A stretch of DNA of 64,000 bases, taken from the NCBI GenBank assembly GCA_905178155.1, contig CAJINV010000001.1, positions 14,157,265 through 14,221,264 on the forward strand, written 5' to 3'. A program made the translations under genes and the position numbers. Below the pieces are notes generated by a model. That model saw only the letters and a list, made by a program, of their open reading frames with translations, was not told the origin of the DNA and did not search any database. How positions within the stretch are numbered: the first letter of the stretch is position 1; every line of letters begins with the position of its first letter. The DNA is from Amoebophrya sp. A120 (lineage: Eukaryota; Protista; Dinoflagellata). Positions 24,144-63,400 of this stretch are shown here, piece after piece.

Positions 24144-27100
24144 TCAGGCAAGCATGCCTAAAAATCCTCCTTCGTCACTGGAAGATCCCGCGTCGTAGTT
24201 GGTTCTTCCGTTTCCCGTGGTTTTCTGCCCCTGCATCACTGTGTAGGCCATCGCACCGAGCACCCCGGCTCCTGCGACCGCGCAGACCCCCATAATGGCT
24301 GCTTTGGGTATCCTTGCAAACCAACTGCCACTTCCCTCCTCCCCCGTTGCGTTTGTTGCGTTAGTGCCATTGCCGGTGCCATTGAGGAGGGCTCCGGCTT
24401 CCAAGTCCTCCGGAGGCGCGACCGTGCAGGGCCCGAGGTACTGGTCGCTTTCGGGGCAGGTGGCACTCTCGTTGAAGCCCCCGTGCACTTGGCAGAACGG
24501 CTTTTTCTCCAACCAGTCCGCGATCGAGGACAGCATGCTGGCTCCGAACAGCGCATCGAATAACTCCTGCGGGTTCTCCACACACGGGTGCGCTACTTCC
24601 CCCGTGTTTACGTTACACACCCCGCTCTTCCACTTCTCCAGCGCACAATAGCAGTCCTGACTGAGTCGCGCACAGTTCTCCCCGCCGTGCCACGCCAGCG
24701 CTCCCGTTTTGACGGATGGGTCGCTCGATCCGAAACACGGTTTGCTGATAATTTCTTCGCACTCCGTGGGACAGGCCGGAACGTTTTCCGCGCAGTACTG
24801 CCGCGGGGTCATCTGTTTGGCGACGCTGTACTTCGCATGGCACACATTCGCTTGCTCCGTGATCAAACTGGGATTGTTGCCGCGCAGGTTCGCGGGGTCC
24901 GGGCTCACGGCATCGCCGCAGTCCTGCTTCCAGGCTTCGCTCGTCGAGTTGCACCGTCTTTGCTTTGGCTGATCGGAGTTCGGCACATTGGGTATGCAGT
25001 GGCATTGCAGACTTACCTATGTGTGTAAGTATTATGTACCTCAGACTCTGTTTTGTACCTAACCTTAGAAAACCTGAACAAAATGACACTGAAAAATAAC
25101 AACCACAGATCTTAGTCTGTGTCTGACTTCATTTTTTTCTTTGGACGCGATAATTGAATTGCATGATATCTCCTCTGCCATACATCTTCTGCAATGCCAA
25201 TGCGTACTCGGGTCAAAATAACAGTTTTTCACCTCCTGCTGGGATAGGTTCTCGACGATTTCGCACTATGCATTGCAAAGGCGCGGCGTGTCTTGCTGGA
25301 ACAGCGAGGGCAATCAAAATATGAAAAAAAAAATGAGAATCCTACAAACTAAAATTGGAAAACCATGCCCGTACACATGAACAACCTCTGAGGTTGTTGT
25401 CCCAACTTTATTTTGTATGATGTTTGCCACAGCGAGACCGCACTGTAATAGATTGCCTCATCCGATACGTGCTCCTGCAGCTCGTAGCAGCGCTCGTAGA
25501 AGTTGAGGCAGTTTCATCCAATCAAAAAACACCCATCCCCATCCAATTTGTCACGCACAACACGCATAAATTTTGATTGCTGTGTTTGTCATGCACAAAA
25601 TGGATGGAGATGGGTGTTTTTTCCTGGATAAGCTTTGCGTACATTGAAGGTGAGAGGTCGAGTAGTCTTCCTGCCCGGTGGAATCTTTTTGGTCCAAAAT
25701 GTGCCACTCGTGACAGCGGTTCCAGATCAAATCCATACTTTTGGGGCCGTCCATCCAATAGCAGAACCCGTACTCCTGCCCCGTACACGAACTCTTGTCA
25801 TAGAACTGGTGCTCGCAAAACGGGTTGACCCGGGCCGTGCGGCCCATGCAGATACAGGCGTCATACAGGTTCCCGTCTGCGTCCGTGGTCAACTCGCACA
25901 GCTTCACGCCGTTCCCGTCGTACGTCCGCACGTCCTCGGGGAGTGGTTCCGGGGTGGTCGTTGTTGTTGTGGTATCCCAGGCACACGGTAGCTTCGAGAA
26001 CGCGAACGCCGTCCCTCCGTCTTTGCAGCTTTGCGCGACTTTGTCCACCACTTTCTCCTGCATCACGCTGTTGAAGGTGGCAATATTTGGATCTGCGAAG
26101 TGGTAGTCCCGGGTGGGAATCGCTTCGGTGCACGTGCTCTTCGCCGCCCACTCGGCCAGGGAGCAGTAGCAATCCTGCGAAAACTTTGGGCAGAAACTGT
26201 TTTTCGCGAAGTTCAGCACGTTCATCTCTGTGTTGGGATCGTCGAAGTTGAAACAGGGCTTGCTCATGTAGCTTTTGCACTCGTCTTGACAGCTTGAGGC
26301 GTGCTGGTCGCAATGCAGCGAGGTCGGGGAAATGTAGACAACCGGCGCCGGCGCGGGCGGCGGCGGTGCGGGCGCCGGGTTGCTGGCCGGGGTCGGATTC
26401 GAACTCGGGTACTTGTTGCATTCCGTGTCAGCATTGGAAACGAGGGTTGGAACCATACTGTCCCCGACCGTCCCCCTGCTAGAGCAATCAGTTCGCCACT
26501 TATTGCGGCTCGGCTGGCAACTGCTGCTCTGACACCCGTTTTTGGTCGGGTCGTGAATCGCGGTGTTCAGGTCGCTGTGCAGCGAGTCTGGACTAAATTC
26601 GATGCAGTCGTTGAAATAGTCGGTGCAGGCCTCCGCGCACGTGGCTACTATAATCATAGCACCAATACTGTAATCGTATTTTGGAGCTCCAGTTGTGCTA
26701 TCGACCTCCGCAGAGAGGGAGTCACAGAACATCCAAACCGGCGTTTTAGTCGTCCAGACGCATTTGCTGTCTCCATTGCACGAAGCCTCGTCCCAGTAAC
26801 TGTTCGGACAGCTATCCGGATATGGGTTGGGACGAAATTTACCAACGCAAACAGGCCAGTTTTTCTCTGCAAGTGTCGACGACTCTGTCTGCAAACCACT
26901 AGAGCTCCGCGAATTGCTCATGTCCCAGGAGGAGAAGGATTGCTGGGACGGGGCAGCTACATAGGCAGGGCGTTTGTAGTTCTTTGGATTTGTCTCCGTC
27001 CTCACAACGCCGGCGGTACTGGGCGAGGTACGAGTGGAGCCTATGCCAATCGTTCCCCTTACTGCGTTTCCTGAATCATCGTACTGACCGTCCGTTATTT

Positions 27101-27674
27101 CTTTTTCCTTAAGCGCCTGCTCCCTGTTCTTATCAAAAGTCGCACCGTGGTCTTGGTATTTCTCATCCCGAAGAAACCGTGAATTAGGTCGCTCCACCTT
27201 GGAGTGCCTTCCCATGGCCGGAGTAGAAGGTGAGGTGCTCCTGGTTACTTGCTGTGCCTGCGGGTCCGAAGCCGCATCATCCTGCAATTGATGCCGCTGC
27301 TGCTCAGGCCGACCAGCTTCAGTGCGCGCTTGTGTAGTGGTTTCGCGGCTGTACCGGCTCCGTCCCCTGGCTTGGGCCTCTGGTAATGAGGTGGTCCCGG
27401 TCTCACTAGTAGTAAGCTGTTGTGGAAATGAAATCCTGCTCCGCTCCGGATCCGAATCCGACAAAGAGGGCGCGTTACTTCCGGTGATTGCTATGCTAGC
27501 TGCTCCGCTATCAGCGTCTATCTCCACTACCGCTGCTTGTTCCTTCTGCATCAGAGACTGCGCTGCACGAGAACCTGCTCGCATGCGGTCTTGATCATGC
27601 GGCCCTTGTTCCACAGTAGGCGGCACAAGACTGTAACCACATCGGAGTAGGATTGCGAAGACGATCGGCGTCAT
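24144..27674 (-). CDS. Cysteine-rich type I membrane/surface protein with internal duplicated Cys modules
   Basis: Signal-peptide-like N-terminus and C-terminal TM segment (AAIMGVCAVAGAGVLGAMAYTV). Duplicated modules C...CQDECKSYMSKPCF...SQDCYCSLAEW and C...CPTECEEIISKPCF...SQDCYCALEKW. Three TAT...ATA insertions (25515-25630, 25267-25467, 24993-25206) link ORF 25551..27674 to ORF 24144..24986 via small exons (QSCLNFYERCYELQEH; EIVENLSQQEVKNCYFDP). Confidence 0.75.
24993..25206. mobile_element. TAT...ATA-class introner (non-canonical intron)
   Basis: 19-bp TIR TATGCAGTGGCATTGCAGA / TACGCATTGGCATTGCAGA (17/19). Degenerate 5-bp repeat (minus strand CCGAG/CCCAA). Removing 219 bp gives YFDP|NVPNSD in frame. 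Confidence 0.75.
25267..25467. mobile_element. Degenerate TAT...ATA-class introner
   Basis: Left end TATGCATTGCAAA is identical to family A/D ends; the right end finishes in ATA; the 5-bp repeat matches 3/5 (cgcac/cgtgc). Both a 206-bp removal and a 203-bp GT-AG removal restore the frame. Confidence 0.55.
25515..25630. mobile_element. TAT...ATA-class introner, family B
   Basis: TIR core AAAAAACACCCATC(C/T)CCATCCA at both ends; repeat agttt/agctt. Removing 121 bp gives QCTQS|CLNFYERC. Homologous to 52710-52818. Confidence 0.88.
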
Positions 27675-28844
27675 GGAGAAGTGAATCTACGCCATAAGGA
27701 AACCGCGTAAGCAGTGCGACAAAACAACATCAACATGCTGCTGCGTCGAGCACTAGTAGCACTGCTCGCGAAATACTTACACTCTCAACGAGTTCTTTGG
27801 GCCAGTCATGACAGCTGACGTGGTCCGCACAGACGCTCACGGTCTTGCACTTCCTGCGGGGTTGCTTTGGGTACCGGCACATACATTGATCATCAATATC
27901 AACTTCACGGTAACTGACGATCATCCTGAGCAATACTTAATGTTAATGTGTAAGTAGCTCTTGCATGTGCATGATTTCGGAGTAAAACAAAGATGAATTT
28001 GCAAGTAGGGAGTGAAATAAAAACAAAAACAGCGCCTGCTGCCGAAGCGCATCCATTGATGCTCTGGCGTTCGGTCGATGCGGGATGCGATGCGCCGGAC
28101 CCCCTACTTTTTTCATAGGCCGTACTTTTGAAAAACTCTCTATGCGCTTCTTCACCCTGCGGCATACGCATCGTCATGTTCCCGCTGTGCCGCTATTTCA
28201 CGGCGGCTCAGAATCAACCTGATCTCAACAGCTCAGCATGTTCCCTGTTGCCCGTCAAAGGTCAATCCAGCTCCGGCTGCGGAACATGCACATGCGTCGC
28301 AGCTGGAGTTTTCTGATACGATGATAGATGGAAGAATGTAAAAGAGTGGCTGCATAGAAGTTCCGGCGGATAGGTATGCTGATTTCAATTTCATGCACTG
28401 TATACGTATTCTTGGTGTTGGTATAATCATAGCTTCCGCGAAGCATCAATGTGGGTCATGAGGGTGTTGAGCTTGAAACATGTGTTCACCTGGCAGAAGT
28501 ACTCTGACTACGACTACGTTTTTCTTGGCTTGATGTACATCTAAATCTAGTAGTTGCATGCTGAATTACACAGATGAGATGATGGTAGTCGTACTAGTTC
28601 ATTTGCGATTTTTTAGCCGAGCTATCATCTACTTCTCGGTTGCTAGCAGCCCTCGAATGGGAAGAACTACGAGCAGGCCGGCATCCGAGTAGAAGACTCG
28701 CAAGCGTCGAGCAATGTTGTAGTTTAAAAAGTGTTGCGTGCTGAAATAACATGAAAGACCTTGTAGCTTTGTTACACGGTTGTCAGCGGGGGCAGAAATT
28801 GTACTTCATGAAACTACGTACAAAAGCAGAGAGCGTGTCGCTCA

Positions 28845-31826
28845 CTACACAAGGGGCGCGTAGCTCATGTCGTCTGCAGTGGCGGCAGAACTGCGGCGGC
28901 CGAAGACAAACCCCACACTCAGGCCGAGCACCAGCATCATAAACGGCATCGCGCTTGGGATGGAGAGTGCTTGCTGGTGTGTAACGTGGATCTGTGTGTA
29001 GTCGTTTTGGTGAAGTTCTAAAGTCTTCCGCTGTACAAGACTGGTACGTACTAAATGAAGCCCTTCAAAGTACATCATGAAAGGCATAGCAACTACATCA
29101 AACTGAAGAATCAGCACTCAGCTACCTTCGCATCTTCGCCCGATCTTTCCACCAACGTCACTGCCGGTGACACCGCCGCTGCTGCACCTGTTTCTAGCAG
29201 CTCCGCTTTCTCACCCACTTTTGGCTGCTGGTAGAGCCAGGTGCTTTGCAGCGCGTTCCAGGTGGTTGGCAGTTTGGTTTTCTCCGGAACAAGTTTGCGC
29301 TCGATCGCAATGGGATGAATGTCGCCGTTGAAGCTGATCGCTTCCGCAAACTCCAGCGGGTAGCCGTAGGGGGCGCCGATGGTACCTTTCGGGTCGTTCA
29401 GAAACCCGTCGTTGTACTTCACGATCAGGGAATCCGCGAGGTCCCACCATTTCCGCACGACTTCGCGCTGCAGCTTCTTTTGCCAGTCGTTCCAGTCCGT
29501 CTGGACCCAGCCGTCGTTGCGGGACGTTTATCAGAAGAAAAAATCCCCCCTCCCCATATCGAAACGAAGTTTCTGCTGCTGGATTTGCGTACACAAATCA
29601 GCTGTGTCTTGCAGTGAAGGACTGCAGGCCCATTGCAGGCCTGAGTAGAGAGGGGGGCCTAGGCGTTTAGCATGAGAAACGTCCATGCTGTAGGCACACC
29701 AGCATCACAGACCGCCGGCATAATGCGGCGAAGCCTGTGGAGTTGCCTTCTTGCAATACAGATGCGAGTTGTGGTCACAAATCCGCATTGCAAATTTTCT
29801 GAGGCATGCCGTTTCGATATGGGGAGGGTAGATTTTTTCTTATGATAACGTTTTGGTTTTCATTTTCGATTCGTACTCCTGTTCGAGCATGGCTTGGAGC
29901 TTCTGTTTCTCTGGGTAGACGTCCTTTTCCGCCATCATGTTGAAGTTGATTTTCATCCAGTTGGACACGAAATCAAACGCCCACCAGGCGGACTTTCGCG
30001 TGTACTCGCGGTTTGTCCCCGTGTAGTACGGCTCCGCTACGTGGGAAGACCGCTGTGTGTTGGTTGAGATTTTCAGAAAATCGTGTTTTCGCTGATGAGT
30101 CACTATTTTTGCTATATTCAGGTGTGGTCACAGTTTGCCCGCAGAATTCATCAACAAGTCAAAAAGAAGTACCGCCAGAACGGGCACAAAAACGCTCGTT
30201 GCGGGCGTGTCGACCGCAAACCAGCTGACGGCCTGATCCGCGGGCTGCGCTTCGTTCACGACACCGTATACGGTGCGCGCGATGCTGATCCCCCGGGGAA
30301 TCTGTCCCACGAGGCTGCTCGCCACGCCGCCCTCGACCGGAAAGGGGTTGCCGAAGGGCCCGGCGAGGGCGCCCTTGCCCAGGTCGAACTCCGTGTCCTT
30401 GTACAGATCGCCATGGATCTTGAAGATGTCCTCGCGCTCGATCGCCTTTTCGACGGGTACAGCCCACGGGTAGTCCATCGGGTCTTGCACCAGCGGAAAT
30501 TTCTTGGACGGCGCCACCAGGTTCAAGGCCCGCCACAGCCGGAGACTGGCGTACAGCGGGATCGGCTGCCCCTTGGTGGTGAACGTGACCGTATCTGGCG
30601 CGAAGGTTTTCGTGAAGTGTAGTTGGTTCGTCACGGTCGTCCCGTCGAGCGCGTAGGTCGGCTTCCACAAGCCAGCTTTCTCGGCCACGGCGTGCAGCTT
30701 CGCGGAAAACAAAATGTCGGCGGTGGGCTCCGCCGGTACCTCGCGGAGGATGAAGTTGTTGGCGATGAAGGCCGCGTGGCCCTTCGGCACGCGCTGTGCG
30801 GCCCACACGGACTTCGCTTCGGGCACTTCCGGAATACCGCCCACCACATGGAAAACCCAAGCGTCGCCCGTGGTGTCGGCGATCGTGATCGCCTCGCCGG
30901 CGTCGTCAATGGTCACGCGACCGTCGGCCTCCTTGCCCGGGGTCCACTCGTTGGGCATCGGGTAAAAACCGTACTTCTCCGCCATTTCGCCCATGGTCTT
31001 TACCGCACACATTGCGGTTGCGCAGCGCTCCATGGCAATCTGCATCAGGGACGTGAGATCGAGATAGGCCGCGACGCCAGTGCCGGGCCCTTTCGCTTGG
31101 TCAGCGGGGTAGTTCATCAGACGGGCGGCGCACGAAGACTCGCCCATACCTGAAAGAGGATTTGTTCTTCATAGAAAAAGTTGCGTATGTTTGAGATCAA
31201 AATTCAAACGTAGGGGGCCATCGCGAGCCAACGAAGACGCACTCGCACGAGGGACAGATGTTGATGTAAAAAAAAGCCTATAATCACTCCCAGTTGAACG
31301 ATACTCAGTCCCTTGTCGTTGATTAGCGGCAGCACACCCTCCCAGTAGCCGTTGGTGTGCGGTACTTCTGGAATGTGTGTGATCGGTGGATGCGGCCTCT
31401 CGCCGTCTTTCGGCTCGTAGAAATTACCGCGGCCGTAGCCAACCCATCGGGGCGCGGAGCCCATGAATTGGTACACGGGACGCTTGTCGCTGCTCTCGAA
31501 GTCTTTTGGCGACACGTAGGCCAGGCGCGGGTCGCAATTTGAACAATCCGCATTCATACCCGCAAAAGCCACTTTGTCCTTTGTGCCGGCGGCCTGAAGA
31601 ACAAGAAAGGTTTTAAAAATAATGAATGAGCCGATGTGTTCGCGTTGGTTCTTCTTTCATCTGTAGTTTAGAATCCCAACAGTGATAATGGCCTGATATT
31701 TGTGAGTTGTTCCTGCTCTTCAACGCCAAGCGTTGTTCTCACCTGAAACACTGACGCCGTGCAGGCGTCCACATGACGAACCGACGCGGCGGCCGCGAGT
31801 GCGGCAACTAGTGGCTTCCGCATCAT
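28845..31826 (-). CDS. Peptidase family C69 (dipeptidase/secernin-like Ntn hydrolase), signal peptide plus C-terminal TM anchor
   Basis: Signal peptide ending DA|CT (nucleophile Cys); MNAD, INDKGLSMGESSC, GEAITIAD, SVWAAQRVP, ANNF, SAWWAF, WWDLADSLIVKYNDG. GT-AG introns 31594-31742, 31150-31304, 30053-30172 and 28974-29125, plus introner 29529-29847. Confidence 0.9.
29529..29847. mobile_element. TAT...ATA-class introner (family B-related)
   Basis: 38-bp TIR TATCA(G/T)AAGAAAAAATC(CC/TA)CCCTCCCCATATCGAAACG (35/38). Perfect repeat ACGTT at 29524-28 and 29848-52. Removing 324 bp gives MKTKT|SRNDGW; no AG acceptor is available. Confidence 0.92.
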
Positions 31827-47781: not shown

Positions 47782-50700
47782 TCACAAGTTCTTTTTCTCC
47801 CTCAACTCTGTTTCTGCCTCGTCGCTAGGATTGGTTGTTCCTGCTTTCACCGCGAAGCTCGATCGCAGTTGCCGCATGGAACGCCGTCGCCAGTCGCGAT
47901 AGCTTGCGCGGCACTGTATCCCGAGGGCTTGTGGCACGGAAATGTTTTCTTGTCGACTCATGTTCCGGGTTCTCCGAGCCTGACCTGTGTAGTGGTCTTC
48001 CTCAAATGTCCTATTTGCACGATCCTGCTCGTTCGCGCTACTTTCATGGGCAGACAAGGCGCTCCGCGGCTGTGCCGTCGTTCCGTCTGAGCGCGGGCCT
48101 GCCTTGGACGACCTCATATCGCCGCCACTCGCTTGAAAAAACGTCGCACCTGCCTCCGCCAAAGCACCTTCGTGCTCCGCTTCCTGATCATCCGCCAGAA
48201 TCGCTTGCAGCACCTGCCCCTTGCGCGTGTTTTCCAGGAAGTCCTCGAGCAGTGGGAATGCGTAGTGGTACCCGAGGGTCTTCAGTTCGTCGAACTTGTC
48301 AAAATCAAGCAAGTTGTAGGTGTCGATCGGCGGCCGGAGGGAGAGATCAACGAAGCGAAAGAAGTCCTTGTAGATCTGCACGTTGGCCATGTTTAGCACT
48401 CGGTCCTGCACCATGGAGCTCGTCGGTGGCTGCGGAGTAGCCGGGTCTGTATCACTTTTACTTCCGAACCACTTGTGCCACAGCATCTTCCACCCACTGC
48501 AAGTGTCGCCGTAGTTGGGGTCGAAGTGGTCGTACAAGGCCGCGACGTCCACGGTGAGCACGACCCCGGCCCCCAGATCGCGGGCCGTCTGGATGGGAAA
48601 ATTGTTGCTGTAGCAGCCGTCGACAAGGAGACTTGTCACATTCCCGTCGGCATCGCGGTCCCCCGGAAAGGGGGGTACGAACCCAACCAGACTCATACTC
48701 GCCCGCACCGCCCGCCACAACTCGCCGTCGCGGTGGAGTATCCTCTGCAAAAGTATAGCATTACTCCAACGAGGACTCGTAGCAATTGCAACTGCTGGTG
48801 ATCCTGCAGCGGGAGCGCTAGTGCATCATGACAATAGATCTCATTCTTGTCATGATTTCTTCGCCGGTCGTAGTTTTAAATCAGCATCACTACAAACTTG
48901 ATGAATATACATCTTTCATACCCCAGCTGTTCAAATGGTCTTGCAGCTCCTACAGCTGCTACGAATAGGTCGGTAGTTGTAGCGCAGCTATTTTTTCAAT
49001 GCATATGGATGACGGGCTCGCAATTAAGAATGTCGAGCGAGCTACAGGCGAAGGGGACAAGCAGGTCCTCCAGGTGGACACGGGCGAAGGTGGATTTAAG
49101 GAGGTTGTTGTGAAATGCGCCGGAAAAGTAGGACAAAATCGGCCAGGTGAGATCGCTGTACATTTTGGTTCGCGTGAACTGGGTCGCGAACAACCACTTC
49201 GCTTTGTTCAAGCAGATGTCGAAGTCCGGGTAGAGGGCGTAAATCCCCGCGGCCATCGAGCCCATGCTGGTGCCGCATATGATGTCCACTGGCACATCAA
49301 GCTCTAGCAGCGCCTGCAGCACGCCGAAGTGCGCGTGGCCCTTTGCGCCACCGCCACCCAGGATTACCCCGACGGCGCGGTTGTGCAGGATCCTTGCGCA
49401 GCGATCGAGGTCGTGGGCCAGGGTTTTCGCGCCCAGCCGGGCGTGGTGGCAGCGCCGCATGCTCGTGTTTTGGTATTGCCGCAGTTTCTGAATGCGGACC
49501 TTCAGGTAGTGGCGGGTGCTGAAACGACCGCGGATGTTCTTTAAGAGCTTCAACTTCTTCTCCACTTGCGCCTTCACGGCGTTTCGCATCCCGGGGGCCA
49601 GCATGTCACGCCGGGAGCCAAAGGCGAACCGGTCCAGCTGCCCGGCGCCAAATCCTCCGTCCGCACGGTGGTCGCTTTGGATGTAAAGTTCCGTGGCGAA
49701 GTTTTCCAGCTGCAGCTTCAAGTTCTCCGCGGTCAGAGCGCTTGTTGCTGCAGCTCCAGCTTCGCCTTTAGGTTCTGCAGCAACATTAGGAGCGCGTCGA
49801 CTACTTGGATCCCCCCGCTCGTCGAACAGCGGATTTATGTTCAAGGCTTTCGCTTTCGTGTTCTCGCCAAGCTGCTGCATCCCGTCGGCTGTCTCCTCCT
49901 GGAAAACGGCTAGCTTCTTCGGCTCCTTATCCATTTTTGCGCAATCAATACTTGGATGATTTTCGTCCTGATGGTCTGCGGAACCTGTACCAGCGGGCTG
50001 CGCTCCTGGCCCAGTGGCTGAGGAGGTAGCTGCTCCGCCGTGACCGGTGACCAATTCCTCCAACGCGGCGAGGTGCGCTTGCTCGTCCTCGCATGCATCG
50101 CAAAAGTATCGCACTCGTATTAATTACAACGCTTTCTGAAGAGTAAGAGAATTTGCATGACAAATAATTCCAACATCGTTCCTATTCTGAGAAGATTCAT
50201 TGCCATGCAGCTGTTCACACATCATACATACTATGGGTATACGTACAATCCTTTTGCATTGCATACCTCGTGGACAAGGACAAACTCGAGCGGCACGTGG
50301 CGCTTGGTGTACTTCAGCGCGTACATCTCTGCAGTGCCGAGTCGCGGGTTTGGCGACACGTCGTCTTTGCGCACCAGCACGCAGATAAGCACCAGGTCCG
50401 CTTGTCGCAGGCAGACGCGGGTCCACTCGGAGGGAGTGGCGTCCGCGACGTACAAAACACAGTCACTGCGGTCCTCCAAATCGCCCAGCGTGCGCGCTAG
50501 AAGCTGCTTCCCGATGCGCTTGTTCATCTGCGCCTGATCTGCTGCGTCCTTCGTTTTGTTCCGCATTGCAGTCGCCTGCTCCTGGCGATGTCCTCGTTTA
50601 GTCGGTGACGTCGACCCGCCTCCTGTAGCGCCATTCCGATTTGAGTCCGTGTCCGTGGTGCTTGCTGTGAACAACGAACTATCCTGGTCGTGCGCTTTTG

Positions 50701-53700
50701 CGTGGGGCGGCGTGACGTTGCCATCAATATCATCCGGCAGAAAGTTGGCAGTTGACTCCGTCGTGACGTTGTCAACGATCAGGCTTCCCTGGTCGAAGAC
50801 TGGACGAGGCCTGGGCGCCCGGGCACCACGCGACCCACTAGTACTACTGCCGGTGGCCATGGCAAGACGCACATCGTCAAAGCCCGTGAGCCGGTGCGTA
50901 GGCCGCAACTTTCCAATGGATTTTTGCAACTGCGCGCCACACATTTCACGCGTGGCGCTATCGCCTGGGATGAGACATATGGACTGCATATGCGGCCAGG
51001 CACACACACCCGGTTGCTTGGTTGTGCCACTTGCCGTGCCCGTGTCGCGTCCCGTCCAAGGCTTGCCATGCCAACCATTAGGGGCTCTCGCGCCGAGCGA
51101 AGAAGATGCGGGTGTAGGCCCCTGGGCCACGTTTTTGTTCCCGTGATGCGCGAACAAGTTGTTGTTCTCGTCACCGCCCCCGAGAGAATCCAATGAGGCC
51201 GTCGACGATGTTGCGCCAGTTGCCTTGCTGCCCTGCGACACACCTACGCCGGCTGGTGGGCTTTGCATTCCGGGATCGTGACCAAGATCGGCTTCGTCCA
51301 AGCTGCTTTGCCGCGTCAAATTGCTGCCCGAGGTGATGCGCGGGAGCGCCGAACCAGGAGTACTAGCCTTCGCTTTGGCACCGGGAATAGCTGCTGGTGG
51401 TACGACCGCACTACTGGCCCCTGAAGCGGTTGTTGCTCTTCGGTCCTGATCTTCCGCAGTTTCGTCAAACACGAGGCGGGAGCCCCGGTGGACGATGGAC
51501 TTCAAGCGTTTTGTTACGCGGTCCTCGATCTGCGCCTTCAGATTTTGCGTGTTCTTCGTCACGTTCTGCAACACCGTCTGGAAAGGAATGAACCGTGTGA
51601 GATTCTGGCGCGCGCCGGTTAAACGGGCGGCGATCGAGGCGCGACCGTGGCTTGTGGCAGGCTCGTCACCATGCCCCCCGGGCGACAACTCCTCATCCGT
51701 CGACAGACTACGCTTCCGCACGCGCGAAGGCGACTCCGTTTCCAGTGCGTCGGACGAGGAACGCCTCAGTCGATTGGTCGAGGACGCAGGGCTCATGCCC
51801 GAAACTGGACCGGACACGGACGCGAAGTTTATGCTGCGCAAAAGTATCGTACTCGTATAAATGCAGGTCTTGCATTACAAGTTTCTTTATCAAGGCAAAT
51901 CAGCATTACAAATTTTATTTCTCATGCTAAGGAAATTTGTAATGCATTTATACGAGTACGATACTTTTGCACTTCATAAAGTTGTAACTGGTGCGAAAGT
52001 CGTCGCCGTCCCCGAGTTGTTGTGCCGCCACGTTGGCAGCCGCACTATGGTTGGTCCGCTGCTCGAGCTTCTTGCTCTGGTCCTTCGAGAGCAAGTAGGT
52101 TGTGAAATTCAATATGCAGTGCGGGTGTTCCTGGGACAAAATTTGCAGCAGAGTCCGGCTGATGCGCACGACGTGGGAATCCCGCGCAGCATAAGCGGTG
52201 TTGTTGTAGGGGAGCCGCGAAAAGCATTCGCTCTCGCCACAAATCCCGCCCTTGCGTACCAGTTCGTACTGCGACGGCTCGAGGTACTTTGGCTTCTTGT
52301 CGTACAGCTGAAATCGTGGCTGGTACTTCTTTTCCGAGTTTGCTATGATTCTATTCCCGCTACGAGGAGGAGGACCACTTGTTTCATACGCCTGCTGATG
52401 GTGTATCGCAGTTTTCGAGGGCGATGATGTGCTCCCCGAGCGCGCTCCGCCGCCGGAAGCAGCTGTGTGGGATGATCGGTAAATCCCGAGCTGGCGTTCG
52501 GGCACCAGCCACAGCTTCCCGCTGCTCACAATGTAGAAGCCCTGCGCTGACGACTCACCCTCGCGAAACAGCTGCCTGCCGCCGGTCACCAGCCGGGACT
52601 CGACAGCCGCTTCGATGCGCCGCACGGAGGGTTTCACCTTCGGAATCACCGTCTGCAGCAGGTTGAGCGACATTTGCAGGGGGTAGCGCTGGAGCAGCCG
52701 GTCGACCTCTATCCAGGAAAAAACACCCATCCCGATCCATTTTTTGCATGGCAAATAGTGGACTTCATGCATATTTTGCATGACAAATTGGATGGGGATG
52801 GGTGTTTTTTCCTGGATAACCTCGTCGCGATCGATCAGGACGAATCGGCAGGCGGTACGGCATATGCATTGCAAAAGTATCGTACTAGTAGAAATAGCAT
52901 TACAAATTTTTCCAGAAGGAAAAATGGAATTTGTAATGCTGAAAAAGCGAAAGAACCAGACTTGTCATGCATGACTACAATTACTACGAGTGCGGTGCTT
53001 TTGCACAGGATACGGCACCGGTACTGGGAGTACTGCGGGATTCCCGCGAGCACGGCCAGCACGCCGAGCAGCTCGCCCGGCACGGTGATGGCGTACGCCG
53101 CCCGGCCTGAGTGGGGCAGTCCGGAGACGACACCAGGATTGCTGCCGTCTGCAGCGGAGTGCGCTGAGAACATGCTGCCTCGCTCGTCTACTGTGCCGCT
53201 TCTCCCGCTTCTGGGCTGTTGCGTTGACGAAGACACTACCTCCTGCTCATCTACACGCACACCAGCAGACGAGATAGTATTAGGATCAGCGACGACGTCC
53301 ACCGCTGGACTTCTTGCGTTGTGGGAAGGAAATAGCGTTGCGAAAACGCTTGTTGGTAGGTCCATGGAACGGGGGCCGGTGCTCCTCAACCCTGATTCCT
53401 CTTCGTCGTAAGCATTCAAGGCTGAGACCGGCAAAGACGGCGGCTGCTGGTCGTTCTGCGCGCGGTTGGTGTCCGGGTAGTTGTTTGCAGGGTCTGTCGA
53501 CACGGGGTCGCCGTTGCTCGACGCCGAGGCCGACACGAACCGCCTCTGTTCTCGCCGCGGGCGCGGAAAAAAACTGTCTACTTGCCCTTGAAGCAAGATG
53601 GCCAGGGCCGTGGCATTCTTTGGGCCGGAGGAAATCGTGCCTCCACCGGTGACGATCATTTCCGTAACGATTTGTCCAGCTTCCTTGTCCAGAAACCGGA

Positions 53701-55939
53701 CCTTCTCGCCGTTCACACAGTCCGTACTAGGTAGGCCCAACCGCGCAGTCAGAATTTTCTGGGCGTCTTTGTCCTTCTCGATGCCTTTTGTCCACGAGAC
53801 GGGGGGAACTTTTTTGATTTCGCTCAGCGTCGTCTCGCTTTTCGTCGAGGTTGTCCCGCTGGCAGAGTCCTCATCTTCGTCTTCTGCCGGTGCCTCCTTT
53901 GCTCCAGATGTTGCCGAATCGGGACGAGTACCTTGCTGGGCGGCTATATCCTGTGCAAAACTTCTATCGCACTCGTACGAAAACCAAAACGAATTGCAAG
54001 TTTGCATGACAACAAGAAATGATCCTGATAGATCCCCATCCTTATCTGAACCTGCCTAAGAGGAACGAAATCGTATCTATCTTTATGTTAATATCTTGGG
54101 GAGTCTCATTGCCTTGCCGCGATTCATAGTACTAGTGCGATATTACTTTAGTTGCGACGCATAGGCTTCTACGTCGCGAAACAATTTTGCCAAGTTCACG
54201 CCCACGTCGCTGACCTCCCCGGTGTGTAGCAAGTCGTTGCTGAGACCGAAATACTTGTGCAACGTGCTCACCACGATGATCATGCGCGCCAGCAGGTGCC
54301 GAACCAGAAGAAAGACTGCGGTGGGAAAGTAGGCCAGCGCAGGAAGAATTGCCTCTTCTGCCGAGAGCTCGTAAATTTCACCGCCCTTTGCAGAAACGCA
54401 CCGAACGCTGCTTTCGTGTCGCACAGTAGTATCTCCCGCGATAATAGAAGCGAGAACGAAGAGGAAGCCGGCCTGTGTGTGTGGTGGATGAAGTTCTTGC
54501 TTGCGATAATCTCTTGGACCACGTGACGCATGGAAATTATAAGAGTGATGAACCACTTCCAAGAAAGTAGGTATCAATGATTGTTTGAGATGGTGCGCAA
54601 ACAACATGATTATTCATTCTATGTATTGAACCGGATAAGGGTCTTTTGTCACTGCAGGAACGTCTCCGTATGTATTTATGTCTGTACCACAGTTTCGCCC
54701 TTGTGCAGCGTCATAGCTTGCGCGGGCCCGGTGTGCCCGTCGCCTTCGGTATCACCGTCTGCCAGTGCTTGATCTTTCTGGTCGTGGTGGCGCGCATGGA
54801 AAATCTCGAACTTTTATACCATGAAATTACGCCCAAGCCCCTGTCCCCAAAATCTTTATGCAGAATGTGCGTTACATTGATATTGTGGTGAACAACTTGC
54901 AAGCCAGCCTCAGACACAACAAAACGTGTTGGTGCTGCAGTGGTTTCGACCAAATCAGACTCGACGTCACCCGCCAGCACGGCAATACATTCAGTGGGCG
55001 ACGCCGACGCCGACGTCGTGTGTTCCTCATCTCTTTGACGGTCTATGCTGAACGAAAACAAATTTCGGGACCAACACGCATGGCCATGGGAACGATCGAC
55101 GGGCATAATTGTGTTGCATAATTCCCCTCGCTTCACTAGCAGGAAAGCGTCCCGCTTAGCGCCTCGGCGAACCGCAAATTCTCCGCACTGAAACTCACGC
55201 ACACGGACGCGGGAGAGTAAAAACTGGAGACACTTGGGATCCTTGATCAACCTCAGGAATTCGCAGTCCTTCAAAAACTCGGCTTTGACGCCGGAGCCTT
55301 GCTGTAGGGCGGCGTCGATAAGTGTAGCCTCCTGATCGCTCTCCAGCTCCGACAGCGCGTGGTCTTGGTCCCCATCGGAAGCGACTATCGAGGCAACGTC
55401 GTCCTCTTCGCCCGTGATTAGCGGATCGGTCTGTTTTGGGCAATAGAGTTCCAACTACATCTACAGGTTGTAGATCGACTCATTCGACGTCAAAACACTT
55501 CGGCATAAACACATGTTGACCATAACCACGCAATGTCGAGCAGCTAGTGAACTACGAATAGATGAAGCACGGTGCTTCTTGCATCCAGCCACCTTCAGTA
55601 CTACACCAGGAGCGGGCCCTGCGGCCATCCAATATTTGCGGAAAAAGAAAGCAAGAAGCTTATTTTTGAATTCTATCGCACCAACGTAGTAATATTAAGA
55701 AGTGATTATAAGCAGCTGAGTACCTCCATTTGTTCCCATTTTTGCCATACCCAAAATTGGATGAGTTTTCCCAGACACCAAATGAGAATCGCCGGAACGT
55801 AGAGCCAAGCGAATTCCAAGAAGAGAGAAAATCCTCCATGGAAAAGGTAAACGTAGCCGCAAGCCCCGCCCAGAACCATCCAGCGTTGGTCCCAAATCAG
55901 GTTGCTCGCGGAGCCCAGAGAAGGCGATGCTGCGTCCAT
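47782..55939 (-). CDS. NTE1: NTE/PNPLA6-7-type lysophospholipase: N-terminal TM, cNMP-binding domains, patatin domain
   Basis: Patatin motifs GGGGAKG, GTSMG and LLVDGCYSNN; SEWTRVCLRQADLVL; cNMP-like segments (AFLLVKRGEFEI, PGELLGVLA, FYIVSSGKL, GESECF...TAYAARDS). Seven TAT...ATA introners plus GT-AG introns 54473-54687 and 55455-55723. The true start is probably further upstream. Confidence 0.88.
48739..49005. mobile_element. TAT...ATA-class introner, family A
   Basis: Ends TATCCTCTGCAAAAGTATAGC and (rc) TATGCATTGAAAAAATAGC; repeat tggag/tggat. Removing 272 bp gives EPVIH|RDGELWRAVRASMS, a conserved patatin segment. Confidence 0.85.
50092..50265. mobile_element. TAT...ATA-class introner, family A (GT-AG compatible)
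   Basis: Ends CATGCATCGCAAAAGTATCGCAC and (rc) TATGCAATGCAAAAGGATTGTAC; perfect repeat CCTCG. Removing 179 bp gives VLVHE|DEQ; the minus-strand repeat CGAG|G yields GT...AG. Confidence 0.9.
51830..51978. mobile_element. TAT...ATA-class introner, family A
   Basis: Perfect 28-bp inverted repeat at 51838-51865 / 51943-51970 inside TAT...ATA ends; perfect repeat AAGTT. Removing 154 bp gives TSYNF|ASVSG; no GT-AG solution at these ends. Confidence 0.93.
52710..52818. mobile_element. TAT...ATA-class introner, family B (in frame, stop-free)
   Basis: 30-bp TIR TATCCAGGAAAAAACACCCATCCC(G/C)ATCCA (29/30); perfect repeat ACCTC. Removing 114 bp gives IDRDEV|DRLLQRYP. Confidence 0.92.
52863..53012. mobile_element. 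TAT...ATA-class introner, family A
   Basis: Ends TATGCATTGCAAAAGTATCGTACTAGTA and (rc) TATCCTGTGCAAAAGCACCGCACTCGTA; perfect repeat CGGCA. Removing 155 bp gives QYRCR|TACRF. Confidence 0.92.
53947..54163. mobile_element. TAT...ATA-class introner, family A
   Basis: Both ends carry TAT-N5-GCAA and TATCGCACT(C/A)GTAC; repeat ggcta/ggctt. Removing 222 bp gives RDVEA|AQQG. Confidence 0.85.
54815..55120. mobile_element. Degenerate TAT...ATA-class introner
   Basis: Ends TATACCATGAAATTACGCCC and (rc) TATGCAACACAATTATGCCC; repeat decayed. Removing 311 bp gives LLVKRGE|FEIFH, which restores a cNMP-domain strand; boundaries TT...AG. Confidence 0.7.
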
Positions 55940-58739: not shown

Positions 58740-58848
58740 TTTATTGCAGCGTGGTTGTGAGAAGTATTCAAGGATGAATTAGAAGAAAGACCTCTTAGCA
58801 AAAGTCGGTGTTGGAAAAAGAAGGTCCGTGTCGTCGAGATACTACAGA

Positions 58849-58913
58849 TAATCTCAGTGATACAACTCAGGACAGGAACAACTAATCTCAGTGATACAAC
58901 TCAGAACAGAAAC
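58849..58913. repeat. 34-bp-period tandem duplication upstream of the 57487..58739 gene
   Basis: TAATCTCAGTGATACAACTCAG(G/A)ACAG(G/A)AAC at 58849 and 58883. Confidence 0.85.
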
Positions 58914-60437
58914 TGAAACAACGAACAGCAACTACAGGAGTAGATACTGATATCGATATTTGCAGCCATACATACGAGAAAAACTGGATGAATTGTTGAT
59001 GAAGCAAGTCAGGGAAAAATAGGGCAAAGCCATACATATTATACAGAACAAGAACTTGGCTAGAAATTTGTAGCTAGAAAGGCGGTGGAAGCGATTTGCG
59101 CGAGTGTAGCGTCCTTGCGTGCGCGACTCCGAAACTGCAACAAAGGCAACTCGATAGGCGGGGCGGGCTGCTATGTCTCATTTGTCAGCGACCTAGACAA
59201 ATCGCCCCCTAGTTAGCTTTCTGCTGTGGATCGATCGCTGCGGAAATTCCGAAATTTTAACGAACTATATTTCGTTGCGTATTTTTCCACCTTCTTCTTC
59301 TTGTACTAGCCGAATTTCTATTTCAATATCTGAACTTCATGACTTTCTACAGGTCGAATTTCTCGCTTGCAAACTTGCATACGATCGAGCACCAAAATTT
59401 GAATTTTTCCAGAGGTCACTGGACAAAGCTTATCATTGGAACAGTTCCATTTGGCGTGGCGTAGGATCGGGCGGTTGCACGCCAAAAATCGGCTCAAGAT
59501 ATGAAGCGCATTTATTTGAGCCTCAGGCACTTCGTTGCAATTGGGGCGCTGCGCCAGCCTGCCAACTACTGTGTTTATTGTAGATACGTATGTTTTGCAT
59601 CGCAATCTAGATGTACAGGACTGAAATTTCCTATATTCGCAAACACGATTATACTTGCATGGAAGGGAACAATTTGAGGAAACGGAAAGCCAATGCCAAC
59701 TACTCTACAGATAAAGAAGCGATGAATAGACTAAAAATAATTTCCCTACATTTTGCCTTGGCGCAAGTAGGCAAAAATCTAGTCTTGGCTTCCCGCCAAA
59801 ATCCCTGGGCTGCTGGTGCGGCAGCCGACCTGGGGGCCTGCAAATCTCCTCGCAGAGAACGAGAATGAAGCTAATTTGTACAGGTTCGGATAATGATCGT
59901 TTCTGTACCTCAACGAGGGCATCTAGTAACAGTAACAGTAAGGAGCGACCTTTCATCAAACACAGCCTTTGCGAGGCTGCTAACCTGCCTTGGCCGCGTG
60001 AAGAGACAGTAAAAGTGATCTAAAACGAGTGAAGCGACTGCGCGCTAGCAAAAGTACAAGTAGTCAACTCAACATCCGCAATGATTGTGACCAACCTGCG
60101 TGGAGTTTTAGAGTGTGCGTCGCGCGAAAGGACGAAGTAGCTCAAAGGGACTTGTTTATTCTGCCCATCGGGCTTTTGAAAAGAAAAAGAATATATCAGA
60201 ATAATTTCAATAAAAATCACTCATTTACTGCAGTTCCAGTGCATGCAGCTACTCATCTCTTTCTGTCGCACTAAAAATACAGAAAATACTTATACGGTTT
60301 CACGAAATAGAGATATACTTCTGTAGCGGATGAAGGATGAAGGAAAAGTTGTATTTGTAAATGAAAAAAAAAGTGCCTGGTGTACAAAAGTATCTACGCA
60401 TATGTTTTTTTCTCTAGCCCTAAGACCAGCGCAGCCC

Positions 60438-63400
60438 TCACTGCGTGACGCAGACCAGGAAGATCCAAATGCTGCAGATGCGCTGCGAGTACGGAAACAC
60501 GCGCACGGCCATGGAGAACTCGGCGTCGTCGCTGCCGAGCGCCAGGAGGTCTGTGTTCGTCACCGCCTGCCAGACCTGTCCGAAGTCGCTCATCCCGAGG
60601 TTGAGCGGCACCCCGTACACTCGCATGCCCCGGTGTCCGCCGAACTCCTCCTCCAACTTTAGGTATAGAGGGAAAGTAAGTGAGTGGTTTTAGGATAATG
60701 TGCTGCTAGTAGAGACAAGAAAAGTCGCAGTCTGCCATGCGGATTATATGCCTACGCAGCTGTTCTTTATCAGAACCAAAAAGCACATCAGAATGGAATC
60801 AAAAACCACTCAATTCCATGCGATGCCGAGTAGGAGTGATTTTCGCTCGTGTTGAGAGATCAGAAAAAGCTGCGTCGTGTATCACATAAAAAGCCGCGTA
60901 GGTGCATCTAAATTCGCGAGACAAGATGGATTTTTTCTTGCGAAAAGCAGCAGTCCGGAACATCACTCACTTCCCCTCCATATCAGGAAAAAAGCGTCCA
61001 CATCCGGCTTCTTGACGGGTACTTCATTGGCAGCTCGCAGCGGTGGTGGTGCCTCATTGCCACCCTCCCGCCGCGTTTGCTTGAATTGCTCCAGGGTCTC
61101 GAGTATGCATTGCAAATATGTCTGCGTCTGGGTCCGGAAACTTGTGACGCGAGTCAGGGAAAAATGAGAATGAGCACACTGTAAGTATTACTGCACTGCC
61201 AAGCATGACAAGTTTTGCCATGCTTTTCAATTGCTTATTACGCATTAGAGATTGCGTTTTTCCATGGCAGGCAAGAGGAGCTCACTGGTGCGGCCACGCA
61301 ATACAGAGCTCAGAGTCCTCATGCCAGACGAGTATGACTACACTTCTCGCAATCAACTACACCCAGACAAGAACATATTTGCATTTCTTGGATATCGAGC
61401 ATTTCTCGGCACTTTCCTGCAATTGCGGCGTTGCTACGGGTCCGCAGGTTTCGGCCGGCACGTTCGCGAAGAAACCGTTTCCAGATATCATCTTCCAATT
61501 GGGCTTGAAGCGCCTGTGTGGAGAGATTAAGGCTCAAGTATGATCGCAAATGCTGTTGTGCAAAGAAACAATCTGTCTAGGTTCACGTTTCCTTTTGATG
61601 AAAGCATCAAAAATCAACATCACGCCATGTGCGATGACAACATCGACATTCTGCAAATTGCATACAATTCTGCATCAGAAAATGCTTTTACGCGTGCCGT
61701 CTACACAGTTTGTGCGTGTAGATAGCACAGTGTGAAATTTAAGAAAAAACACATCACGATGACCAACACATTATATTAGTTGCAAACTTGTGAGGCTGAC
61801 GCCGATACGAATGAAACAAAAGCTGGAGGTCGTCGTTTGAAGTAAATAAAGTTAGTACCTTCGCCCTGGAAACGTTAGGTGGTTCATACCGCAGAGCTGG
61901 CTGGAGCGTTTCAATGGTTCCATCGGGAAACAAATGCTTCTTCTCACTTTCGTCCACGAACAAGGGGCGCCACAGCGCATGGTTCTCCAGGTCCCAATCC
62001 ATCTTCAGCACGCAACTTTCTGCCGCTGTTCCTGGCTCTCGTGCTGAAGATTAGTGATAGATCATACACACCACGAACATGAGCGTTACACCAGCATTCT
62101 CCTTGCTGCAGGAATCAAGGTTGAGTGACCCAAGCCAGGAAAAAGGACGACAGATTACAGAAGTAATTTGAATTTCTGCGAGATCACACAACACAAGGAA
62201 ACTGTGAAAAATTATTTTTTCAATCTTTTCATCAAGCAACGAGCGACTCTTGAAACATCAAGGGTGGGCAACATAGATAGTTAGTACTACTAGAAGAATA
62301 ACGAAGCACGTGAGTTGTACATTCTGCCCGGTGTCGCAGCGTGTTGTACCAAACATTTTCCGCGGAGAAGACGACATTTACTTTCTGAATCGGGCAGGTG
62401 AGGGCGTACGGTGATGGTCCCGCTATGGCAGATCCAGTAAATCGACCTGAGATGATAGGCAGCACAGGATTTCAAAAATTTTCGGAATATGACAAGGTTT
62501 CTTGTTATTAATTTGGTTATTTCGCATTGGATTCAGACTGTTCCAACTCACTGTCACAGCGTCCTTGATCATGAATGAAATATCTTTTTCAATACCCTTC
62601 TTCGCGGCTTCGTGTCGCTCGCGTAGGCGTTTTATGATAGTGGACAGTCCCCCTCGCCCAACTATTTTTCCGCACACATAAACGCAAAACTTCCAGCATT
62701 TTTCTAGCGCTTTTCAGCAATACGACCTTGCGTGAGAGGAAATCGCATTTACAAGACTTCGCACAGTACTGTGATCCACACCAATGTCGTGCTTTGGTCT
62801 GTCAACACATAAGGTTGATCTACGTGTCCTCTGATGTTGTCTCTGTTGCTCGCTCTTGGCCTTGCGCCGTATTAAACTCTACCCATTAAATATTCGAGGG
62901 GATGAAGCTGAAGCAAGGGTGGGTGGAGTAGAGATGTCCACCTTGATACGCTTTACGCACCCCGTGATCGCCCCTACCGGTCCTGCTTGGTCTGGGTCGG
63001 CAGGTACGGCATTGTAGTAGGTCTCGCCCCGGCGCGGCACAAAGTAGCAACGGTTGGTGATTGGGTCCCAGAACTCGGTGTTGCCGCTCAACTGGTCCTG
63101 GCGCATCACATACATGCCGTCCCCGTCAGGAATCGCATCCACTGCCACACAAAAGCTTTTTACTTGGTGCCCAGGGTCCACCTGAAGGTTGTGTGATAGA
63201 AGGCGCGCTGTAGGAGATGTTCTTGCAACTTCTTACGATTCCACCACGTCGGTGAACCAATTGCAACGCGACATTCATCGAGAACAGAACAGCAAACTTT
63301 TTGACAAAACAGTGAGCAAAAACAGGAAAACCATTTTGAAAACGTCGAACAAGAAAATCCCTCCTATTAATACTTCCCCCCGCTTCGCGTCGATGTAGTT

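What the first reader, a model, noticed from the sequence alone, without database searches (positions are those of the whole stretch)
24993..61394. A system of 13 transposon-like non-canonical introns with a fixed structure: 5-bp repeat + TAT...ATA TIRs + exact frame restoration
Seen: 13 insertions in four genes (Cys-rich protein, C69 peptidase, NTE patatin, CC2D2A). Each begins TAT (CAT in two cases) and ends ATA (GTA in one case), usually as TAT-N7-AA, has 19-38+ bp TIRs, and is flanked by a 5-bp direct repeat (perfect in 6 of 13). In all 13, deleting the element plus one repeat copy restores the frame and sensible protein sequence. Only three can be read as GT-AG. Several unrelated TIR families share the same terminal rule. 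Established: Amoebophrya genomes carry invasive inverted-repeat intronic elements (Farhat et al. 2021), and to my knowledge their excision mechanism and transposase are unresolved. Inference: these are MITE-like elements of one mobilisation system that are precisely spliced from conserved genes by a structure-guided mechanism. TAT ends with a 5-bp TSD do not match the usual eukaryotic superfamilies (Transib has 5-bp TSDs but CAC ends).
Basis: partly seen in the sequence, partly recalled or inferred. Interest (0 to 1): 0.92.

Follow-up and report, generated by a model that had tools for sequence, protein, structure and literature searches.

The report
Known parasite introners, fixed cut rule
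These thirteen small hairpin-ended jumping elements inside genes of the marine parasite Amoebophrya A120 are its already published 'introner' elements; all nine directly checked are missing from transcript sequence as exactly their own length plus five bases, and the cut is likely made by a relaxed spliceosome that reads only the symmetric element ends.

Summary
All 13 insertions are present. Nine of nine in the RNA-laid right part are skipped by exactly the predicted length, in contigs that also lose normal GT-AG introns. The other four have indirect contig or gene-model support. The organism is Amoebophrya sp. A120. TAT-N7-AAA ends, 3-5-bp repeats and the MITE likeness are already in Farhat 2021.

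Added here: (1) The only single cut register that fits is one base before TAT and four after ATA. This gives N-TAY, like host GTAY donors; the scan found this register before on other windows. (2) In 421 related metagenome elements the repeat is a true 5-bp duplication (two empty sites). Target choice shows no GT/AG bias, and both orientations are equally common, so the signal is symmetric. (3) A 14th element (TTA ends, 8-bp duplication, 15943-17062) is also removed as length+5 in the gene model, leaving a codon scar. 

No transposase was found, and spliceosome involvement is untested. 'Matches no superfamily' is overstated: hAT5 makes 5-bp duplications, and IS3EU and IS481EU have similar ends.

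The parts
24993..25206 (-). Element 1 (214 bp, TAC...ATA in transcript sense), repeats CCGAG/CCCAA; removed as 219 nt, best register 24989-25207
   Evidence: Contig ends at 24989 (X1) and 24988 (X3) fit registers +1/+2 only; gene model P0003 reads DPNV, which needs register >=+1
25267..25467 (-). Element 2 (201 bp, decayed TIR), removed as 206 nt rather than the nearby 203-nt GT-AG
   Evidence: P0003 is reproduced only by 206-nt deletions; a 56-nt contig remainder fits 25208-25263
25515..25630 (-). Element 3 (116 bp; same family as 52710, opposite orientation), 121 nt removed
   Evidence: X1 piece starts at 25631 with 42 nt left over; P0003; 19-20 DNA contigs have loose ends at its termini
29529..29847 (-). 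Element 4 (319 bp, perfect TSD) in the C69 peptidase gene, 324 nt
   Evidence: X3 piece resumes at 29523 with 575 nt upstream; the joint row itself was not shown; 32 DNA contigs have loose ends at 29529; 6 near-full relatives in metagenome loci
48739..49005 (-). Element 5 (267 bp) in the NTE patatin domain, 272 nt
   Evidence: RNA joint 48733>49006 in X1 and X4; splits the Patatin match in two
50092..50265 (-). Element 6 (174 bp), 179 nt; reads GT-AG at register +1
   Evidence: RNA joint 50086>50266 in X1 and X4
51830..51978 (-). Element 7 (149 bp, abundant family), 154 nt
   Evidence: RNA joint 51824>51979 in X1; 105 near-full relatives
52710..52818 (-). Element 8 (109 bp), 114 nt; no in-frame stop if retained
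   Evidence: RNA joint 52704>52819 in X1 and X4
52863..53012 (-). Element 9 (150 bp; same family as 51830, opposite orientation), 155 nt
   Evidence: RNA joint 52855>53011 in X1 and X4
53947..54163 (-). Element 10 (217 bp), 222 nt
   Evidence: RNA joint 53941>54164 in X1 and X4
54815..55120 (-). Element 11 (306 bp, repeat decayed to 2 of 5), 311 nt; register -1..+1
   Evidence: RNA joint 54808>55120 in X1, X4 and X5
60664..60982 (-). Element 12 (319 bp), 324 nt; register 0 or +1
   Evidence: RNA joint 60658>60983, 1 ambiguous base, X1
61104..61394 (-). Element 13 (291 bp), 296 nt
   Evidence: RNA joint 61098>61395 in X1
15943..17062 (-).
   Evidence: gene model P0001 is reproduced only by 1125-nt deletions (length+5), not by the scarless 1128-nt GT-AG option; no reads laid here
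24147..27674 (-). Cys-rich membrane-protein gene, 994 aa after removing elements 1-3
   Evidence: Equals database protein P0003 from Amoebophrya sp. A120; no Pfam match in its two long exons
29127..31168 (-). Peptidase C69 gene (exons seen; ends approximate)
   Evidence: PF03577, E 9e-15
47782..55939 (-). NTE/PNPLA6-like patatin gene: 7 elements plus 2 GT-AG introns; 2080-aa open frame after the RNA joints
   Evidence: Patatin, NTE_Ploop and cNMP_binding matches
60438..63919 (-). CEP76/CC2D2A-like gene (partial) holding elements 12-13
   Evidence: PF24652 and PF24656; RNA joints

Best explanation
These are the published introner elements of Amoebophrya sp. A120: short non-coding TIR elements flanked by a 5-bp duplication that are absent from mRNA-derived sequence as their length plus five bases, likely cut by a relaxed spliceosome one base before the 5' TAT and four bases after the 3' ATA. 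Shown: insertion makes a 5-bp duplication at near-random exonic targets in either orientation, and removal restores the frame. Inferred: a cut-and-paste transposase supplied in trans moves them (hAT5-like or IS3/IS481-like; not found). Inferred: the 5' cut is read as N-T-A-Y, the host donor GTAY without the need for G, probably through U6/U5 since U1 was not detected in this strain. Inferred: the 3' cut needs no AG and is placed by distance from the paired ends. Because TAT...ATA reads the same on both strands, any orientation splices. Confidence is about 0.97 for the identity, 0.75 for the register and 0.55 for the spliceosome.
For: Identity: 100% matches named Amoebophrya sp. A120; TAT-N7-AAA and 3-5-nt repeats published. 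Removal: 9 of 9 RNA joints, in contigs that also skip GT-AG introns, with piece arithmetic closing exactly on the NTE contig; 2080-aa frame; DNA-like run X7 keeps elements 1-2 in one ungapped contig. Duplication: 257 of 421 perfect at 5 bp; 0-1 at 4 and 6-10 bp, 8 at 3 bp, 38 at 2 bp; two empty sites with one copy; 42 of 45 same-strand flank pairs need a gap of 2 mod 3 (P 4e-17). Register: 60664 allows {0,+1}, 54815 {-1,0,+1}, 24993 {+1,+2}; the intersection is +1. Host GT-AG introns start GTAY in 9 of 11; oriented 5' ends were TAT 232, TAC 2, CAT 2 of 236. The nine predominant non-canonical sites listed for A120 all begin NT and those for A25 all begin TT. Orientation within families 21:20, 14:11, 8:6, 7:6, 7:5; 51830 and 52863 are opposite yet both skipped in one contig. 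U1 not detected in A25/A120 but present in the GT-AG strain from Karlodinium.
Against: No lariat, branch point or spliceosome dependence was tested, and equal use of both orientations leaves no room for an internal branch signal. Host canonical introns end CAG in 11 of 11, whereas at register +1 only 13 of 157 elements end AG and 49 of 157 start GT, with no enrichment over coding background. The register rests on three junctions, one of them indirect, and assumes a single register; Farhat calls the sites variable relative to the hairpin, and its Table S4 comes from aligner output that can shift within repeats. A codon test of which repeat copy is exonic was not decisive (upstream copy favoured 19 of 32 at positions 1-4, 2 of 7 at position 5). 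5' versus 3' end decay is not significantly different. The 14th element needs 6 or 7 bases after its inner GTA, not 4. 48739 splices with 0.5 predicted bp between its ends. No transposase in 82 of 217 long frames.
Confidence: 0.6

Rival explanations
1. A separate, non-spliceosomal endonuclease-ligase (or a dedicated euglenid-like machine) recognises the base of the TIR hairpin, cuts with a 1-nt and 4-nt stagger, and releases a linear or circular RNA.
For: No GT or AG need; both orientations equal; 11 of 13 have 7 or more expected bp between their ends. Euglena non-conventional introns use a paired motif with fixed 3-nt and 5-nt spacers and are excised as circles. [quoted passage not shown]
Against: The match of N-TAY to the host GTAY donor would be a coincidence. 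The spliceosome is nearly complete in A120. Fritillaria removes transposon-like non-canonical introns with a modified U2 spliceosome. No G-U bias in the stems.
Confidence: 0.3
2. The joints are reverse-transcriptase template-switch artefacts across hairpins flanked by direct repeats, and the elements stay in the mRNA.
For: Direct repeats plus structure are the known cause of false non-canonical introns (PMC4176328). All RNA evidence here is cDNA-derived contigs, mostly from one study.
Against: Retention would break 12 of 13 frames (8 frameshifts, 4 with stops) in genes with intact domains on both sides. Joints with only 1-2 ambiguous bases (60658, 54808) and with almost no hairpin (48739) are still skipped by exactly length+5. 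Flank frames in an independent population need length+5 (42 of 45).
Confidence: 0.03
3. Removal is precise in length, but the cut slides within the duplication from element to element, so there is no fixed register.
For: Farhat reports variable sites. 22 of 39 mismatches between the two repeat copies are synonymous, as if both copies were partly coding. The 14th element departs from the +1/+4 geometry.
Against: All 7 imperfect repeats in the window are compatible with +1. The synonymous excess is also expected from exon-side drift and was not tested for significance.
Confidence: 0.2
4. The shared TAT ends and 5-bp duplication reflect a splicing filter acting on several transposases, not one mobilisation system: only elements whose removal as length+5 keeps the frame persist in exons.
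For: Two elements with 8-bp duplications (window 15943-17062; L004:1352-1874). 8 and 5 are equal mod 3, and the gene model removes length+5 from the first. Gozashti 2025 attributes A120 introners to diverse classes.
Against: Across ten or more families the ends share T-A-T, A at 11-13 and a poorly paired spacer at 4-7, which looks like one transposase's cleavage and binding sites (inference). An end-free scan found no abundant second class, though those loci were selected by one family's pattern.
Confidence: 0.3

Closest known systems
Introner elements of Amoebophrya sp. A120 (Farhat et al. 2021, PMC7789003; Gozashti et al. 2025, PMC12130899)
   Same: Same organism, TAT-N7-AAA inverted repeats, short direct repeats at the borders, non-canonical RNA-supported junctions, repeated families, MITE comparison, 'TIR DNA, unknown superfamily'.
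   Different: Those papers give repeats as 3-5 nt (automated) and the cut as variable. Here the duplication is strictly 5 bp with empty sites, one register fits, orientation is free, and an 8-bp-duplication element loses length+5 in its gene model.
Euglena non-conventional introns (PMC12501133; review PMC11282704)
   Same: Works alike: paired ends, no GT-AG, slidable direct repeats, cuts at fixed spacers from a paired triplet.
   Different: CAG/CTG with 3- and 5-nt spacers and circular products, versus TAT/ATA with 1 and 4; product unknown here; unrelated lineage.
Fritillaria borealis non-canonical introns (PMC13326754; review PMC11282704)
   Same: Transposon-like introns with TIRs and TSDs removed by an altered U2 spliceosome.
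   Different: Fritillaria has preferred AG-AC/AG-AT borders, keeps U1 and has duplicated U2AF; A120 shows no dinucleotide preference beyond T at +2, and U1 was not detected.
hAT5 (PMC12730594)
   Same: 5-bp TSD; hAT usually makes 8 bp, and both lengths occur here.
   Different: No hAT transposase seen here. The YA..TR end rule for hAT is recalled and comes from no call.
IS3EU/GingerRoot and IS481EU (PMC10045372, PMC12730594)
   Same: TA..TA (TAYGG..CCRTA in rusts) and TNT..AYA ends.
   Different: TSDs are usually 6 bp (IS3EU) or about 4, 15 or 25 bp (IS481EU); here 0 of 421 at 6 bp and 1 of 421 at 4 bp.

Membership tests
A120 introner elements (Farhat 2021) | Genome is Amoebophrya sp. A120 | tested here: met
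   100% protein matches named so by their sources
A120 introner elements (Farhat 2021) | Inverted repeats starting TAT, 7 looser bases, then As | tested here: met
   element 25267 is decayed
A120 introner elements (Farhat 2021) | 3-5-nt direct repeats at the borders | tested here: met
   5 bp; perfect in 6 of 13 and 257 of 421
A120 introner elements (Farhat 2021) | RNA-supported removal at non-GT-AG borders | tested here: met
   9 of 9 joints; only 2 of the 9 can be read GT-AG
A120 introner elements (Farhat 2021) | Repeated in the genome as families | tested here: inconclusive
   6 of 13 have near-full relatives in metagenome loci, 1 only at the ends, 6 none (loci biased to one family); loose DNA ends for elements 3 and 4; own genome not held
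MITE (non-autonomous TIR transposon) | Duplication made on insertion (empty site has one copy) | tested here: met
   Two empty sites in L021 versus L002
MITE (non-autonomous TIR transposon) | Cognate autonomous element with the same ends | tested here: inconclusive
   None in 612 kb of loci; candidates in earlier notes not checked
hAT5 | 5-bp TSD | tested here: met
hAT5 | hAT-type transposase | not testable with these tools
   No autonomous copy in hand; whole genome not held
IS3EU/GingerRoot | TA..TA termini | tested here: met
IS3EU/GingerRoot | 6-bp TSD | tested here: not met
   0 of 421
IS481EU | TSD near 4, 15 or 25 bp | tested here: not met
   1 of 421 at 4 bp, and the 5-bp signal dominates; lengths above 10 not examined
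Transib / CMCT clade | CA..TG termini | tested here: not met
   TAT 369 of 421 and ATA 371 of 421; clade rule
Canonical U2 intron of this host | GT at the start and CAG at the end | tested here: not met
   4 of 157 GT-AG at register +1; host introns 11 of 11 GT..CAG
Canonical U2 intron of this host | T-A-Y at +2..+4 | tested here: met
   Holds at register +1, which is inferred from three junctions
Canonical U2 intron of this host | Lariat with a branch adenosine | not testable with these tools
   No raw reads of this strain (X11 gave 2 reads)
Euglenid non-conventional intron | CAG/CTG with 3- and 5-nt spacers | tested here: not met
Euglenid non-conventional intron | Excised as a circle | not testable with these tools
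   Needs RNase R or back-splice reads

The most novel reading that the evidence does not exclude
A120 has evolved a general 'hairpin-plus-five' splicing rule: a U1-independent machine cuts one base before a TAY at the foot of any terminal inverted repeat and removes five unpaired bases in total, whatever the flanking sequence, the orientation or the length of the target duplication. That would make almost any TIR transposon with a 5- or 8-bp duplication a tolerated intron, and would explain the ends of both the A120 (N-TAT) and A25 (TTA) introners with one rule.
Probability: 0.3. Interest if true: 0.8.

Novelty: already known. Interest (0 to 1): 0.42.

Why it matters
The elements are published, but how about 65% of this parasite's introns are cut without GT-AG is not. 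A fixed N-TAY start, free orientation and no target bias narrow the options to a symmetric end signal and name the bases to mutate or to look at in lariat data. The 8-bp-duplication element separates two things that coincide in all other copies, the duplication and the splicing ruler, so one RT-PCR can show which sets the cut. If the rule holds, it shows how a host can neutralise exonic transposon insertions wholesale and gain tens of thousands of introns.

Tried and rejected
Whole-genome tests were not possible: no G000, and metagenome records are not held for extension.

The first loose scan was too noisy to use. Viral contigs had 0 matches to the family pattern. Raw reads X11 gave 2 reads and were no use; X5 gave 10 contigs.

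Selection toward G at +1 and AG at the 3' end was suggested by two window cases but not seen in 157 oriented elements; rejected. RNA-level selection on the stem (G-U over A-C) was not seen, 155:169, P 0.47. The codon-likelihood test of register was not decisive.

One search had a sign error in the frame test; it was corrected. The strand classifier scored 13 of 13 on the window but was trained on window genes. 157 of 421 elements passed the orientation filter, and 50 of 325 had both flank frames callable (5 of the 50 disagreed on strand).

Transposase hunt: long pairs L009:505-1608, L037:6184-6998, L037:1255-9905 (a chance pairing of two elements with the same 5-mer) and L038:5888-7905 (not examined further). 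L009 has no convincing frame. No transposase family in the 82 frames scanned of 217.

The 203-nt GT-AG reading of element 2 does not reproduce P0003. Of 9 blast rows spanning rebuilt empty sites (336 queries), 2 are real, 6 are self-matches and 1 is low-complexity.

Literature: five searches showed no paper stating the +1/+4 register or an A120 transposase with these ends. Subscription papers (Roy 2023, Henriet 2019, Huff 2016) are not in the library, figures were not visible, and I read only two parts of Gozashti's family table.

Full report
1. Observation. A scan of the whole window for TAT-like inverted ends plus a 5-bp repeat gave 7 hits with score 10 or more, all among the 13, against 0-2 in each of 8 shuffles. 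The other six have gapped or decayed arms. Element 25267 has almost no TIR left, and 48739 and 53947 pair weakly. Eight of 13 would shift the frame if kept, four more carry stops, and 52710 would add 38 residues. Pfam confirms C69 peptidase, NTE-type patatin and a CEP76/CC2D2A-like gene.

2. They are removed from RNA. On 47500-61800, run X1 shows all 9 predicted skips (272, 179, 154, 114, 155, 222, 311, 324, 296), X4 shows 6 and X5 shows 1. X1 is only guessed to be RNA, but its contigs also skip four GT-AG introns, and the pieces of the NTE contig add up with no base between them. Applying these joints gives a 2080-aa frame. On 20500-35500 the four joints were not among the rows shown, but contig pieces end where the deletions predict, and the database protein P0003 is reproduced only by deletions of 219, 206 and 121 nt. 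X7 behaves as DNA (flat depth near 27), keeps elements 1-2 in one ungapped contig, and has 19-32 contigs with foreign flanks at the ends of elements 3 and 4. X1, X3 and X4 are one study, and the gene models may rest on related data, so these are not independent lines.

3. What it is. Database proteins 100% identical to window exons are named Amoebophrya sp. A120. Farhat 2021 (abstract, parts 2-5 of the body, passages of methods and supplement) already reports 65% non-canonical introns in A120, inverted repeats starting TAT + 7 bases + As, 3-5-nt direct repeats, hairpins, the MITE likeness, no detected U1 and no transposase in A120. Gozashti 2025 (passages, and parts 15-16 of one supplementary table) lists 58 A120 families, many as 'TIR DNA, unknown', and one with Copia/Gypsy-like frames. 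The system is known.

4. More copies. One metagenome scan with a pattern from the commonest family gave 151 loci, 612 kb, nearly all from one assembly. Ends were called without using the flanks: of 421 elements, 257 have a perfect 5-bp repeat and 68 have 4 of 5; lengths 4 and 6-10 give 0-1 each. Length+5 is spread evenly over the three frames (143, 129, 149). Two empty sites carry one copy of the 5-mer. Where both flank frames could be called (50 of 325), 42 of 45 same-strand pairs need a gap of 2 mod 3, that is removal of length+5. In 157 oriented exonic copies the target shows no G or AG enrichment, and families lie in both orientations about equally. In the window, 51830 and 52863 are one family in opposite orientations and both are skipped. 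Any splicing signal must therefore be in the symmetric ends (inference).

5. Where the cut falls. Perfect repeats hide the cut; imperfect ones do not. 60664 allows shifts 0 or +1, 54815 allows -1 to +1 (RNA joints), and 24993 allows +1 or +2 (contig ends at 24989 and 24988; P0003 needs at least +1). The other four imperfect cases are compatible. One register fits all: one base before TAT, four after ATA. The intron then starts N-T-A-Y, and the host's GT-AG introns start GTAY in 9 of 11. I stated this register before seeing the earlier notes that report it on other windows; they are repeats of the idea, not support. Independent tests in the metagenome set were not decisive.

6. A fourteenth element. 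An end-free scan found a 1120-bp TTA...TAA element with an 8-bp duplication at 15943-17062, inside a RING-finger gene. Gene model P0001 is reproduced only by 1125-nt deletions, starting at TTAC or TAC, not by the scarless 1128-nt GT-AG option. The models were built from transcript and protein alignments, with BLAT used to allow non-GT-AG borders, but I had no read-laying run left for this junction. If right, the five extra bases are set by the splicing step, not by the duplication; the N-TAY start holds and the 'four after RTA' rule does not. This is one unverified case.

7. Mechanism. Shown: random exonic insertion with a 5-bp duplication, either orientation, removal of length+5. Inferred: mobilisation in trans by a cut-and-paste transposase; a 5' cut read as N-TAY by a spliceosome without U1; a 3' cut placed by distance from the paired ends. 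For the spliceosome: the donor match, near-complete machinery, U1 present in a GT-AG strain (passages of PMC12005148), and the Fritillaria precedent (abstract of PMC13326754; passages of PMC11282704). Against: no AG, no room for a directional branch signal, and the Euglena precedent of fixed spacers from a paired triplet (passages of PMC12501133) with circular products. Strong pairing is common but not required in prediction (48739), and stems show no G-U bias. An RT artefact (passages of PMC4176328) is unlikely because retention would break 12 of 13 frames.

8. Superfamily. No transposase was found. hAT5 has 5-bp TSDs (passages of PMC12730594). IS3EU has TA..TA ends but 6-bp TSDs, and IS481EU has TNT..AYA ends but other TSD lengths (passages of PMC10045372). 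Two earlier notes name long candidate elements; I could not check them. PMC11453091 was seen as passages; other papers only as search listings. Figures and the rest of the supplements were not seen and may bear on the register claim.

9. Verdict. Real and RNA-supported, but already known as a system. Interest 0.42.

Noticed in passing
window 15943-17062: A 1120-bp TTA...TAA element with 54-bp TIRs and a perfect 8-bp duplication sits in a RING-finger gene. The A120 gene model removes 1125 nt (length+5, one extra Gly) although a scarless GT-AG option of 1128 nt exists. No relatives in the loci or in earlier notes.
   Followed up: partly
L004:1352-1874: A TAT...ATA element with a perfect 8-bp duplication, apparently inserted into the left end of another element.
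   Followed up: partly
L002:2990-3700 versus L021:1775-1980: Two copies of one locus, about 91% identical, share one element and differ by two, giving clean empty sites; alleles or paralogs not resolved.
   Followed up: yes
window 57113-61400: One 6361-nt RNA contig of X1 runs from the CEP76/CC2D2A-like gene through about 1.4 kb without a long frame into the downstream Lys/Gly-rich gene, which X4 holds as a separate 1253-nt contig: read-through, long UTR or an assembly join.
   Followed up: no
metagenome loci, TIR positions 1-14: The two arms pair at 97% or more at positions 1-3, 42-65% at 4-7 and 87-97% at 9-14 (236 elements), like a cleavage site and a binding site with a free spacer.
   Followed up: partly
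window 1-64000: Nineteen of the 23 frames of 250 aa or more and all 11 GT-AG introns in the joint rows shown are on the minus strand. The 13 TAT elements cluster in four genes, while a 1916-aa XPG-like frame (35995-41742) and the 1619-aa exon at 11086-15942 have none.
   Followed up: no
L036: One match to the family pattern comes from a different metagenome set than the rest and lies near Sel1/MYND frames.
   Followed up: no
metagenome loci, imperfect duplications: 22 of 39 differences between the two repeat copies are synonymous and 24 of 39 fall at third codon positions.
   Followed up: partly
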